A DNA stretch of 64,000 nucleotides, from assembly GCF_056712565.1 (NCBI RefSeq), contig NZ_CM160072.1. One strand, written 5' to 3'. Position numbers: made by a program. Of the stretch, positions 9,001 through 12,000 are shown piece by piece; positions within the stretch are counted from its first letter, which is position 1; every line of letters starts with the position of its first letter.

Positions 9001-12000
9001 GTAAGTTTAACGTCGGGGCGATTTATCGCGTTACCGATTGGGCCGACGTTAACCTTAGCTATGAACGTGGCAACACCTTTATGTTTGGCGTTACGCTGCG
9101 CACCAACTTTAACGATCTGCGCCCGTCCTACAACGATAACGCCCGCCCGCAATATCAACCGCAGCCGCAGGATGCCATTTTGCAGCACTCGGTGGTGGCG
9201 AATCAGTTAACGCTGTTGAAATACAACGCCGGACTGGCCGATCCGCAGATCCAGGCGAAAGGCGATACGCTGTATGTTACCGGCGAGCAGGTGAAATATC
9301 GTGATTCGCGCGAAGGGATCATCCGTGCTAATCGGATCGTGATGAACGATCTGCCGGATGGGATCAAAACGATCCGCATTACGGAAAATCGCCTTAACAT
9401 GCCGCAGGTGACGACGGAAACCGATGTCGCCAGCCTGAAAAATCATCTCGGCGGAGAGCCGTTGGGCCACGAAACGACGCTGGCGCAAAAACGCGTCGAG
9501 CCAGTGGTTCCGAAGTCCACCGAGCAGGGCTGGTATATCGACAAATCACGCTTTGATTTCCATATCGATCCGGTGCTGAACCAGTCGGTCGGTGGCCCGG
9601 AAAACTTTTACATGTATCAGCTGGGCGTGATGGGAACGGCGGATTTGTGGCTGACGGACCATCTGCTGACCACCGGCAGCCTGTTTGCTAACCTTGCCAA
9701 CAACTACGACAAGTTTAACTACACCAATCCGCCGCAGGACTCGCACTTACCGCGCGTTCGTACCCATGTGCGCGAGTATGTGCAGAACGATGTCTATGTG
9801 AATAACCTGCAAGCCAACTACTTCCAGCATCTGGGCAACGGCTTCTACGGTCAGGTCTACGGAGGTTATCTCGAAACCATGTTTGGCGGTGCGGGGGCAG
9901 AAGTGTTGTATCGCCCGCTGGACAGCAACTGGGCGTTTGGTCTGGATGCCAACTACGTTAAACAGCGCGACTGGCGTAGCGCAAAAGATATGATGAAATT
10001 CACCGATTACAGCGTGAAAACCGGACATCTGACCGCGTACTGGACGCCATCTTTCGCCCAGGACGTGTTAGTGAAAGCGAGCGTCGGGCAGTATCTGGCT
10101 GGGGATAAAGGCGGCACGCTGGAGATCGCCAAACGCTTTGATAGCGGCGTGGTAGTGGGGGGCTATGCCACGATCACGAATGTTTCGAAAGAGGAGTACG
10201 GCGAAGGGGACTTCACCAAAGGCGTGTATGTCTCTGTACCGCTGGATCTCTTCTCGTCTGGCCCGACACGCAGCCGTGCGGCGATTGGCTGGACGCCGCT
10301 GACGCGTGACGGTGGTCAGCAACTTGGGCGTAAGTTCCAGTTGTATGATATGACCAGCGACCGTAGCGTCAATTTCCGCTAAGTCATGGGAAAGGTGCCA
10401 GTTTTCGCACTCACTGGCACCTTCATTCTTAATGGCCTGTCGAGCCATCAGGAACGTAGTTCACCCCCGGTTTGCGATCTGGTGTGTAAAGGCGAAAACA
10501 TTCTGTCTTCCTGTCCGTCGATATCGGTTGCAGGTCTGGTTGCCTGAGCGACTGGGCCATCATTGGACTGGAGACATTGCTTTGCGGTAGGTCGGCTTTA
10601 TCAGCAGTACCGAGCGGACCAGCATAAGCAGGAAGAACAGAGACTGATAACATCAAAGCAGCAAAATAAGACTTCATTTTTACCACCTTTATCAGGTTAC
10701 GTTTCATTTGTTCCAGAGGAACATTGTCGATTTTTCGCGCATTGCTGGTGGCTGGGAATCACCTGAATGGGTGATTTTTTTGGGCTGTGTGTTTTGCCAG
10801 ATGCGACGTTGATGGGAGATGCCCACTTAATTGAGCTGAACAAAACATACACAAAAAATATAGATCTCCGTCACATTTTTGCGTTATACAGGAAGCTCGC
10901 CACTGTGAAGGAGGTACTGCTATGACGTCACTCTCTCGTCCGCGCGTGGAGTTTATCTCCACCATTTTGCAGACCGTACTCAATCTTGGCCTGTTGTGCC
11001 TCGGCCTGATTTTGGTTGTCTTCCTCGGCAAAGAAACGGTGCATCTGGCTGATGTGCTGTTTGCGCCAGAACAAGCCAGTAAATATGAGCTGGTAGAAGG
11101 GCTGGTGGTTTACTTTCTCTATTTCGAATTTATCGCGCTGATTGTGAAGTACTTTCAGTCCGGTTTTCACTTCCCGCTACGTTACTTTGTCTATATTGGG
11201 ATCACCGCCATTGTGCGCTTGATCATCGTCGATCATAAATCGCCACTGGATGTGTTGATCTACTCGGCAGCGATCCTGTTACTGGTGATCACCCTGTGGC
11301 TGTGTAATTCGAAACGGCTGAAGCGGGAGTAAAAAAAGGCGCTCCGTGGAGCGCCGAATAACAGTCACAAGTTGGGATAACGTAAGTTGAGGGTGCAGCG
11401 GCATAACATTGGCAGAACAACATCTTTAACCTTTCACACCACCTGCCGTCAGGCCGTTGACCAGCCAGCGTTGAGCCAGCAAGAAGACGATGGTGATCGG
11501 TAATGCAGACATCACGGCAGCGGCGGCAAAGTCACCCCACAGGTAGTTTTGCGGGTTGAGGTATTGCTGCATCCCCACGGCCAGGGTGTAGCTGTTTACG
11601 TCACGCAGTAATAGCGACGCGACCGGAACTTCAGTAATGGCAGCGATAAACGACAGGATGAACACAACCGCCAGAATCGGTACTGACAGCGGCAACAGGA
11701 CAAGGCGGAAGGCCTGCCACGGTGTCGCACCATCCAGCGCCGCCGCTTCTTCCAGCGAACTGTCGATGGTTTCGAAATAACCTTTGATGGTCCAGACATG
11801 CAGCGCAATCCCGCCCAGATACGCGAAAATTACGCCGCCGTGAGTATTCAGGCCAATGAATGGAATGTACTCACCCAGACGATCAAACAACGCATACAAC
11901 GCGACCAGTGAAAGTACTGCCGGGAACATCTGGAAAATCAGCATTCCTTTCAGCAGCGTCGCTTTGCCTGGAAAGCGCATACGGGCGAAAGCGTAGGCGC

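What the first reader, a model, noticed from the sequence alone, without database searches (positions are those of the whole stretch)
11333..11425. xylE (D-xylose:H+ symporter) appears absent between psiE and malG
In K-12 as I recall the order (psiE - xylE - malG), about 1.5 kb encoding XylE separates these genes. Here psiE stops at 11332 and malG stops at 11426, leaving 93 bp that contain only the mal operon terminator hairpin. The strain would then rely on the XylFGH ABC system for xylose uptake. A clean absence with an intact terminator suggests either an ancestral state or a precise deletion.
Basis: partly seen in the sequence, partly recalled or inferred. Interest (0 to 1): 0.4.

Follow-up and report, generated by a model that had tools for sequence, protein, structure and literature searches.

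The report
Ancestral empty xylE site, psiE–malG
This E. coli strain (the species' type strain) really does lack the xylose transporter gene xylE between psiE and malG, but that is the original, ordinary state shared by a third of E. coli and all its sister species; K-12 is the one that gained the gene, and this was already known.

Summary
psiE ends at 11332, malG ends at 11426, and 93 bp lie between them. K-12 has 1,890 bp there, including xylE.

The window is identical to E. coli ATCC 11775 / DSM 30083T (phylogroup B2). The same xylE-less junction occurs in:
- 1,786 of 5,426 complete E. coli genomes, including strain IAI39;
- E. albertii, E. whittamii and two other non-coli Escherichia;
- most other Enterobacteriaceae sampled.

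No remnant of xylE is present. Observed xylE losses elsewhere leave scars. This is therefore the ancestral empty site, not a deletion. K-12-like lineages gained a 1.8-kb promoter–xylE–terminator cassette at the A-run next to psiE's stop codon. xylE-like DNA is absent from the rest of this genome.

- The 93 bp hold more than a hairpin. They are the malG 3'UTR, identical to the K-12 sequence that gives the MalH small RNA.
- This strain does not simply fall back on XylFGH. Its xylR activator carries an 11-bp frameshift deletion (outside the window), and the type strain is documented as D-xylose-negative.

Absence of xylE (strain 042) and its gain in the A/B1 lineage are already published. Interest is low.

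The parts
10922..11332 (+). psiE coding sequence (136 aa); stop codon TAA at 11330-11332
   Evidence: ORF list; RefSeq annotation of the identical record; 99.3% aa identity to K-12 PsiE
11331..11337 (.). A7 run (T7 on the minus strand). It is the empty attachment point where the 1,797-bp xylE cassette sits in K-12-like genomes. It is also the U-tract of the malEFG terminator, and it overlaps the last two bases of psiE's stop codon.
   Evidence: Breakpoint alignment with K-12: left gagtAAAAAG|tcagc, right gaaagAAAAAAAG|gcgctcc, window gagtAAAAAAAGGCGCTCC. K-12-type genomes align to query 1-436 and 432-1001, i.e. window 10900-11335 and 11331-11900.
11338..11355 (-). Intrinsic-terminator hairpin of malEFG (GGCGCUC-CACG-GAGCGCC; 7 bp, 6 G-C pairs) followed by U7
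   Evidence: Terminator scan; present in the MFE and centroid folds; conserved hairpin in Escherichia, Citrobacter, Enterobacter and Klebsiella junctions
11333..11425 (.). The 93-bp psiE-malG spacer. All of it is collinear with the malG-proximal ~90 bp of the K-12 xylE-malG intergenic region. It holds no xylE remnant.
11331..11438 (-). Equivalent of the MalH 3'UTR-derived sRNA: last codons of malG, stop codon, 3'UTR and terminator. The 5' end is approximate, placed by counting 104 nt back from the U-tract.
   Evidence: [quoted passage not shown] Window 11330-11445 is 115/116 identical to K-12; the one difference is the T of psiE's TAA. Expression in this strain was not tested.
11426..12316 (-). 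malG coding sequence (296 aa), last gene of malEFG
   Evidence: ORF list; MalG protein identical to K-12; annotation

Best explanation
The 93-bp psiE-malG spacer is the original, never-occupied junction of two convergent transcription units.

Anatomy. One G+C-rich hairpin flanked by A7/T7 ends the malEFG transcript and forms the 3' end of the MalH sRNA. It sits directly against psiE's stop codon, so it probably also serves as psiE's terminator (inferred).

History. The lineage of this strain (E. coli ATCC 11775, phylogroup B2) never had xylE at this site. In the ancestor of the E. coli lineage that contains K-12 (A), O26 (B1) and O157:H7 (E), a 1,797-bp module was inserted into the A-run. The module consists of the xylE terminator hairpin, xylE, and its AT-rich XylR/CRP-type promoter region. 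How the module entered is inferred: recombination at a core-gene-flanked hot spot, with an unidentified donor.

Consequence. A xylE-less E. coli has only the high-affinity ABC system XylFGH for dedicated xylose uptake. In this strain even that is moot, because the activator gene xylR carries an 11-bp frameshift and the strain is phenotypically xylose-negative.
For: Identity: the window equals the reverse complement of NZ_CP033092.2 4463534-4527533 with 0 mismatches. The strain is B2 (PMC4334874).

Population:
- The contiguous junction occurs in 1,786 of 5,426 complete genomes.
- xylE occurs in 3,638 of 5,426 by megablast, and in the same 3,638 by blastn, all at >=95% identity.
- The two classes sum to 5,424.
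- The chimeric query gives a single place in the ATCC 11775 chromosome.
- Its plasmid has no XylE hit.

Polarity:
- E. albertii, E. whittamii, Escherichia sp. E1V33 and sp. MOD1-EC7003 have the same 92-94-bp junction, TAA-A6/7-hairpin, with species-typical flank divergence.
- So do C. koseri, Enterobacter cloacae and Klebsiella spp..
- 61 of 75 outgroup loci with a full malG have a spacer of <=400 bp.
- IAI39 also has 93 bp.
- 042 lacks xylE (PMC2808357).

Losses leave scars:
- C. braakii keeps a 382-bp remnant: the xylE terminator, the 3' end of xylE, and part of the promoter region.
- E. coli TOE17 keeps 17% of xylE, and 675SK2 has an IS1 in the gene.

Independent polarity control at the same locus: B2 and IAI39 share a derived REP deletion upstream of psiE, whereas for xylE they share the outgroup state.

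Literature: xylE was inferred as acquired in the A/B1 sublineage (PMC6896753).
Against: - xylE is as diverged between E. coli, the Citrobacter freundii complex and K. oxytoca as malG is (82-86% in every genus pair). No sampled genus is therefore the donor, and an old presence at this locus followed by many losses is not formally excluded.
- A precise loss cannot be told from ancestral absence at the junction itself. It could arise by recombination between the flanking A-runs, or by replacement with an empty allele through flanking homology.
- K-12, O157 and O26 flanks show no imported, divergent tract next to the cassette, so the entry mechanism is unexplained.
- E. fergusonii and Salmonella were not among the 80 loci returned.
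- Only named strains could be assigned to phylogroups. The assignments of IAI39 (F), 042 (D), K-12 (A), O26 (B1) and O157 (E) are from my own knowledge.
Confidence: 0.88

Rival explanations
1. Secondary precise loss. An ancestor of B2 (or of B2/F/D) had xylE and lost it cleanly, either by recombination between the short A-runs that flank the cassette or by homologous replacement with an empty allele from another strain or species.
For: The K-12 cassette is flanked by AAAAAG direct repeats. xylE divergence between genera equals core-gene divergence, which would fit long residence at this locus. Flanks are conserved enough for allelic replacement.
Against: The same junction is found in four other Escherichia species whose flanks are diverged by the normal species distance, so there is no sign of a recently spread empty allele. 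The xylE-less E. coli groups are the ones usually placed basal, so this rival needs several independent perfect losses. The losses actually observed are imprecise.
Confidence: 0.08
2. Long-lived presence/absence polymorphism. Both alleles, empty and xylE-bearing, have coexisted and been exchanged by homologous recombination across the conserved psiE and mal flanks, within and between genera. Under this view neither 'gain' nor 'loss' describes the B2 state well.
For: The cassette sits at the same site in three genera and co-diverges with the host. Close relatives differ in state: K. oxytoca has xylE, while K. michiganensis and K. grimontii do not; the C. freundii complex has it, while C. koseri does not. 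The junction carries other cargo in other taxa.
Against: Within E. coli all xylE copies are >=97.3% identical and the two allele classes partition the genomes almost perfectly. That looks like one event followed by vertical descent, not ongoing exchange.
Confidence: 0.03
3. Artefact: xylE is missing because of an assembly collapse, or it has moved elsewhere in the genome.
For: None found.
Against: The same junction is present in 1,786 independent complete assemblies, including a second assembly that appears to be the same strain (JCM 20135) and the independently assembled S88. There is no xylE-like DNA in the chromosome by blastn and none in the plasmid by tblastn. The 1,788 genomes without xylE have no match even at blastn sensitivity.
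Confidence: 0.01

Closest known systems
E. coli K-12 psiE-xylE-malG locus (xylE = b4031, D-xylose:H+ symporter of the sugar-porter MFS family)
   Same: Same flanking genes and orientation. psiE is 98.5% and malG 98.1% identical at the nucleotide level. The ~90 bp next to malG, including the terminator, are identical.
   Different: K-12 carries an extra 1,797 bp between psiE's stop and the mal terminator: the xylE terminator hairpin, xylE, and a 281-bp promoter region of 34% G+C. In K-12, psiE faces the xylE terminator instead of the mal terminator.
Published xylE absence in EAEC 042 (Chaudhuri et al. 2010, PMC2808357)
   Same: A natural E. coli lacking xylE but keeping xylFGH. The paper attributes lower xylose respiration than MG1655 to the missing low-affinity symporter.
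   Different: 042 still uses xylose through XylFGH. The strain of this window is xylose-negative and has, in addition, a frameshifted xylR.
Inferred gain of xylE in the A/B1 sublineage (Gonzalez-Alba et al. 2019, PMC6896753)
   Same: Same polarity as concluded here: xylE is an acquisition of the lineage leading to A and B1, not a loss in B2.
   Different: Here O157:H7 and O55:H7 also carry xylE at this site, so the gain seems to predate the split of E from A/B1. The paper gives no junction anatomy.
MalH, the 3'UTR-derived sRNA of malG (Iosub et al. 2020, PMC8081044)
   Same: The spacer plus the last malG codons match the K-12 MalH-encoding sequence at 115 of 116 positions, including the terminator.
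   Different: In K-12 the DNA beyond the terminator is the xylE promoter region. Here it is the end of the convergent psiE gene, 5 bp from the hairpin. Expression and processing were not examined in this strain.
Core-gene-flanked integration hot spots of Enterobacteriaceae chromosomes (general concept, from my own knowledge)
   Same: The psiE-malG junction is empty in most taxa but carries different small sugar-related modules in others. These are xylE; LysR + HAD; PTS + NagB-like + asparaginase-like + LacI; and PTS + GFO/IDH/MocA + DUF7916 + GntR + xylE.
   Different: No integrase, transposase or tRNA gene is associated with the site, and in this window it is simply empty.

Membership tests
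xylE (sugar-porter MFS D-xylose:H+ symporter) present in this genome | An ORF or DNA homologous to K-12 xylE between psiE and malG | tested here: not met
   The spacer is 93 bp and collinear with the K-12 malG-proximal sequence. tblastn XylE versus the window gives a best hit of E=0.04 in an unrelated gene.
xylE (sugar-porter MFS D-xylose:H+ symporter) present in this genome | A xylE copy elsewhere in the same genome | tested here: not met
   The chimeric flank+xylE blastn query gives a single place in NZ_CP033092.2. The plasmid NZ_CP033091.2 has no tblastn hit. xylE-like DNA is found in only 3,638 of 5,426 genomes even in distant mode. The chromosome was tested at DNA level only.
Intrinsic (Rho-independent) terminator | G+C-rich stem-loop immediately followed by a U-tract on the transcribed strand | tested here: met
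   7-bp stem (6 G-C pairs), 4-nt loop, then T7 on the minus strand at 11355-11331. The hairpin is present in both the MFE and centroid structures. The whole-spacer fold is not better than shuffles (z = -0.86), as expected for a short local hairpin.
Intrinsic (Rho-independent) terminator | Bidirectional use, i.e. also terminating psiE on the plus strand | tested here: inconclusive
   The plus strand has the same hairpin, preceded by A7 but followed by GAAUAAC, so there is no U-tract. The scan reports no plus-strand terminator. Function needs transcript 3'-end mapping.
MalH 3'UTR-derived sRNA | Sequence: ~104 nt spanning the end of malG, the stop codon, the 3'UTR and the terminator | tested here: met
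   115/116 identity to K-12 over window 11330-11445; definition from PMC8081044. There is no Rfam model match.
MalH 3'UTR-derived sRNA | Accumulation as a stable processed RNA that pairs with ompC and other targets | not testable with these tools
   Needs Northern blot or RNA-seq in this strain.
Deletion scar / pseudogene remnant of xylE | Residual cassette sequence: xylE terminator hairpin, 3' or 5' coding fragment, or promoter blocks | tested here: not met
   None is present in the window spacer. By contrast, C. braakii keeps 382 bp with all three kinds of remnant.
Mobile element or genomic island (for the K-12 cassette that is absent here) | Integrase or transposase gene, inverted repeats, tRNA target, or carriage on a plasmid | tested here: not met
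   The cassette holds only xylE. Its ends are an AAAAAG direct repeat. No natural plasmid carries it.

The most novel reading that the evidence does not exclude
The A-run/terminator junction between psiE and malG is a trans-genus cargo hot spot. The same promoter-xylE-terminator module has entered, or been exchanged into, exactly this point independently in E. coli (A/B1/E), the Citrobacter freundii complex and K. oxytoca. Other sugar modules use the site in other taxa. The window shows the empty allele of an old, recombination-maintained presence/absence polymorphism. xylE co-diverges with its hosts, yet close sister species differ in state. This would point to repeated allele exchange through the conserved flanks, or to a terminator-targeted insertion mechanism that has not been described.
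Probability: 0.2. Interest if true: 0.35.

Novelty: already known. Interest (0 to 1): 0.15.

Why it matters
For genome annotation it matters little. This is a normal accessory-gene difference: a third of sequenced E. coli lack xylE.

It is a useful reminder that K-12 gene order is not the ancestral reference. Here K-12 carries the insertion.

The practical points concern other matters:
- xylE-less strains depend on XylFGH for xylose uptake, which is relevant to strain choice for pentose fermentation and to metabolic models of B2, F and D strains.
- In these strains the MalH sRNA terminator abuts the convergent psiE gene instead of the xylE promoter, which could change read-through or interference at both genes.
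- The species' type strain is xylose-negative. The most plausible cause is not the missing xylE but an 11-bp frameshift in xylR. I did not find that link stated in the papers searched.

Tried and rejected
- Relocated or divergent xylE: rejected.
- Plasmid-borne mobility of the cassette: rejected. The only 'plasmid' hits are mislabelled chromosome-sized records or engineered Pseudomonas putida vectors.
- Imported divergent flanks next to the cassette in xylE+ strains, as expected for recombination with a distant donor: not seen. There are 0 differences in the first 200 bp on the malG side, and only background levels within psiE. The one cluster of fixed differences lies about 500 bp upstream, in a REP-element indel.
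- Citrobacter or K. oxytoca as donor of E. coli xylE: rejected, because xylE is no more similar between these genera than malG is.
- The extra segment in K. oxytoca as a psiE duplication: no homology by blastn; only about 12-19 nt of psiE's tail plus the A-run are repeated.
- Rfam search of the spacer: no family.
- Promoter scan: none in 10700-11700.
- UMN026 (NC_011751.1) could not be fetched, so phylogroup D rests on the 042 paper.
- Literature search for a published link between xylR and the type strain's xylose-negative phenotype: none found.
- The short minus-strand ORFs in the spacer (41 and 44 aa) were treated as mechanical, with no supporting evidence for coding.

Full report
**Observation.** psiE is an ATG-initiated ORF at 10922-11332 on the plus strand (136 aa, stop TAA at 11330-11332). 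malG lies at 11426-12316 on the minus strand (296 aa). The spacer 11333-11425 is 93 bp.

**Source of the window.** The window is identical, with 0 mismatches over 64,000 bases, to the reverse complement of NZ_CP033092.2 4463534-4527533. That record is the chromosome of E. coli DSM 30083 = ATCC 11775, the type strain. A genome paper places this strain in phylogroup B2 (PMC4334874). RefSeq annotates psiE and malG as adjacent there.

**Comparison with K-12.** In a K-12 MG1655 record the order is psiE, xylE (1,476 bp, opposite strand), malG, and the psiE-malG spacer is 1,890 bp. The recalled gene order is therefore right, and the difference is 1,797 bp.

- The breakpoints fall in short A-runs. K-12 reads gagTAAAAAG|tcagcacg on the left and gaaagAAAAAAAG|gcgctcc on the right. 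The window reads gagTAAAAAAAGGCGCTCC.
- All of the window's spacer is collinear with the ~90 bp next to malG in K-12, and identical to it.
- The K-12-specific segment consists of a hairpin that serves as the xylE terminator, xylE itself, and a 281-bp upstream region of 34% G+C.
- xylE has lower G+C at third codon positions (54%) than psiE, malG or malF (63-67%).

**Population survey.** Among 5,426 complete E. coli genomes, 1,786 carry the contiguous psiE-malG junction. The rest match the two flanks as separate pieces.

- K-12 xylE is found in 3,638 genomes by megablast. Exactly the same 3,638 are found with the more sensitive blastn mode, all at >=95% identity.
- The two classes sum to 5,424, so they are essentially complementary. 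There is no divergent second xylE in the xylE-less genomes.
- Named xylE-less strains include ST131, S88, APEC O1, UTI89 and IHE3034 and IAI39, which also has a 93-bp spacer.
- The genome paper of EAEC 042 reports absence of xylE (PMC2808357).
- xylE-positive strains include K-12 and B derivatives, O157:H7, O55:H7 and O26.
- The phylogroup labels of these named strains (B2, F, D, A, E, B1) are from my own knowledge.

**Is xylE elsewhere in this genome?** I built a chimeric query: 2,001 bp of the window around the junction plus K-12 xylE on the opposite strand. In blastn mode it returned a single place in NZ_CP033092.2, the junction itself. The strain's 131-kb plasmid and the window give no tblastn hit to XylE better than E=0.04. 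The chromosome outside the window was tested at DNA level only.

**Polarity.** A scan of one genome per species with PsiE returned 80 loci.

- E. albertii, E. whittamii, Escherichia sp. E1V33 and Escherichia sp. MOD1-EC7003 all have a 92-94-bp spacer with the same structure: psiE TAA, A6-7, then the hairpin. None has xylE.
- Their psiE, malG and malF differ from K-12 by 2-8%, consistent with their being separate species rather than recent recipients of an E. coli allele.
- The same TAA-A-run-hairpin junction is seen in C. koseri, Citrobacter sp. MGH106, Enterobacter cloacae and Klebsiella species.
- Of 75 loci with a complete malG, 61 have a spacer of at most 400 bp.
- A built-in control for polarity exists at the same locus. 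Upstream of psiE, B2 and IAI39 share a deletion of REP-type repeats that K-12, O157, O26 and all four outgroups retain. Outgroups can thus reveal a derived state in B2 when there is one. For xylE, B2 shares the outgroup state.

**Losses look different.**
- C. braakii has a 382-bp spacer that still contains the xylE terminator hairpin, the 3' end of the gene and part of the promoter region.
- In E. coli, TOE17 keeps 17% of xylE, and strain 675SK2 has an IS1 inside the gene.
- The window has no such remnant.

I conclude that the empty site is ancestral and that K-12-like lineages gained the cassette. A published reconstruction reached the same polarity, listing xylE among genes acquired by the A/B1 sublineage (PMC6896753). 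Because O157:H7 and O55:H7 carry it too, the gain probably predates the split of E from A/B1.

**What remains unexplained is how and from where the cassette came.**
- xylE sits at the same point in the Citrobacter freundii complex (eight loci) and in K. oxytoca, but not in K. michiganensis, K. grimontii or K. pneumoniae.
- The promoter regions are homologous, with conserved blocks. The right-hand ends differ: E. coli has 61 extra bp. K. oxytoca has about 390 extra bp, including a second copy of psiE's last ~12 nt plus the A-run.
- xylE is exactly as diverged between genera as malG is (82-86% in all pairs). None of these genera is therefore the donor of E. coli's copy.
- The flanks of K-12, O157 and O26 show no imported tract next to the cassette.
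- No natural plasmid carries the cassette.
- The junction also holds unrelated cargo in other taxa: LysR + HAD hydrolase; PTS EIICB + glucosamine-6-P-isomerase-like + asparaginase-like + LacI; and, in C. sedlakii, PTS + GFO/IDH/MocA + DUF7916 + GntR followed by xylE.

The site thus behaves as a small recombination hot spot. This leaves room for an old presence/absence polymorphism, which I rate as unlikely but not excluded.

**What the 93 bp do.**
- On the minus strand there is a 7-bp hairpin (six G-C pairs, 4-nt loop) at 11355-11338, followed by U7 at 11337-11331. This is a standard intrinsic terminator for malEFG.
- The U-tract overlaps the last two bases of psiE's stop codon.
- The spacer is more than a hairpin. 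In K-12, the last malG codons, the stop codon, the 3'UTR and this terminator form MalH. MalH is a 104-nt Hfq-associated sRNA that represses ompC and tunes maltoporin expression (PMC8081044).
- The window is 115/116 identical to K-12 over that stretch, so MalH is very probably made here too. That is inferred, not tested. Rfam has no model that matches.
- On the plus strand the same hairpin is preceded by A7 but not followed by U's. Whether it also stops psiE is therefore open.

**Functional reading.** That is the published view for xylE-less 042, which respires xylose less well than MG1655 but still uses it. For this strain it fails.

- In ATCC 11775, xylF, xylG, xylH, xylA and xylB are intact, with only a few amino-acid differences from K-12.
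- xylR, however, is annotated as frameshifted. It lacks 11 bp (nt 1119-1129). The last 20 residues of its AraC-type DNA-binding domain are replaced by a 10-residue out-of-frame tail.
- The deletion is real. It appears in 11 records, including an assembly of almost identical length that appears to be the same strain (JCM 20135) and the independently assembled S88. It is absent from the other ~5,400 records.
- The type strain is reported not to grow on D-xylose in Kauffmann's description, in OmniLog PM-01 plates and in M9 medium, whereas MG1655 does (PMC4334874). It also scores D-xylose-negative in an independent panel (PMC6624678 Table S2).
- The genome paper does not mention any xyl gene, and I found no paper linking xylR to this phenotype.

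The causal link between the xylR deletion and the phenotype is my inference. XylA P233L is an untested alternative.

**Verdict.** It is already documented in the literature and common in the species. The finding is ordinary. The two useful corrections are the MalH content of the spacer and the xylR lesion, which, rather than xylE, best explains this strain's xylose phenotype.

**Not tested:** E. fergusonii and Salmonella at this locus; a protein-level search of the whole chromosome; and systematic phylogroup typing of the 5,426 genomes.

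Noticed in passing
outside the window: NZ_CP033092.2 143289-144456 (locus L088 13289-14456, minus strand): xylR of this strain has an 11-bp deletion (nt 1119-1129, AAAAGCATATG) that frameshifts the last 20 aa of the AraC-type DNA-binding domain. It is shared by only 11 of ~5,420 records (ATCC 11775, JCM 20135, S88, MS7163, EV36 and derivatives, N53, N62). The type strain is documented as D-xylose-negative. No paper searched links the two.
   Followed up: yes
outside the window: L088 18670-19992 (xylA of ATCC 11775): XylA differs from K-12 by P233L and H416N. XylB has 7 substitutions, XylG 3, XylF 1 and XylH 0. The xylA-xylF control region has 3 substitutions. P233L is an untested alternative or additional cause of the xylose-negative phenotype.
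   Followed up: partly
window 11331-11438 (minus strand): The spacer plus the last malG codons correspond to the MalH 3'UTR-derived sRNA of K-12 (115/116 identical). In xylE-less strains its terminator U-tract overlaps the stop codon of the convergent psiE gene.
   Followed up: partly
window ~10790-10830 (between the 279-nt minus-strand ORF at 10429-10707 and psiE): B2 (this window) and IAI39 share a deletion of about 75-95 bp of REP/BIME-type palindromic repeats. K-12, O157:H7, O26, E. albertii, E. whittamii and two other Escherichia retain them. This is a derived marker in the psiE upstream region. K-12 and O157 also annotate an extra 144-nt ORF here.
   Followed up: partly
L022 6412-6796 (Citrobacter braakii ATCC 51113): A 382-bp psiE-malG spacer that is a decayed xylE cassette: the terminator hairpin, about 130 bp of the 3' coding end, and the distal promoter blocks. 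It is a clear example of imprecise xylE loss.
   Followed up: partly
L068 7929-8642 (Klebsiella oxytoca NBRC 105695): The xylE cassette is present although K. michiganensis and K. grimontii lack it. The right junction carries about 390 extra bp and a second copy of psiE's last ~12 nt plus the A-run (gaaacgcgaataaaaaaaag). This looks like the footprint of an insertion event.
   Followed up: partly
L038 4525-10459 (C. sedlakii), L040 6412-11146 (Citrobacter sp. 18056), L058 6397-8188 (Enterobacteriaceae bacterium RIT691): Other cargo occupies the same psiE-malG junction: PTS EIIC/IIB + GFO/IDH/MocA + DUF7916 + GntR, then xylE; PTS EIICB + glucosamine-6-P-isomerase-like + asparaginase-2 + LacI; and LysR + HAD hydrolase. 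No integrase or transposase was seen among the ORFs of at least 100-120 aa that were listed in these spacers.
   Followed up: partly
window 29809-36971: A five-gene cluster lies between qorA and dnaB: FAD-binding protein, MFS transporter, enoyl-CoA hydratase, acyl-CoA:acetate/3-ketoacid CoA-transferase and a LacI-family regulator. As I recall, K-12 lacks it at this position.
   Followed up: no
window 42623-56016: A second 2-oxoglutarate dehydrogenase / succinyl-CoA synthetase set lies between tyrB and aphA, with a DASS transporter, an Ldh-family oxidoreductase and a sensor kinase / sigma-54 regulator pair. It looks like the UPEC alpha-ketoglutarate utilisation island c5032-c5039 described in PMC5318444. 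A pnuC + AAA-ATPase pair lies at 39614-41166, between alr and tyrB.
   Followed up: no
window 1-790 (minus strand): The window starts inside a sugar-binding (SorC-type) regulator. In IAI39 the corresponding gene heads an L-sorbose PTS operon next to rluF. The type strain grows on L-sorbose whereas K-12 does not (PMC4334874).
   Followed up: no
table (UTI89, NU14, UM146, SF-173 and others): Some B2 genomes show a second matching place for the chimeric flank+xylE query. Since xylE alone matches none of them, the extra place must come from the flank part (psiE, malG, or the yjbH-side sequence). It was not identified.
   Followed up: no
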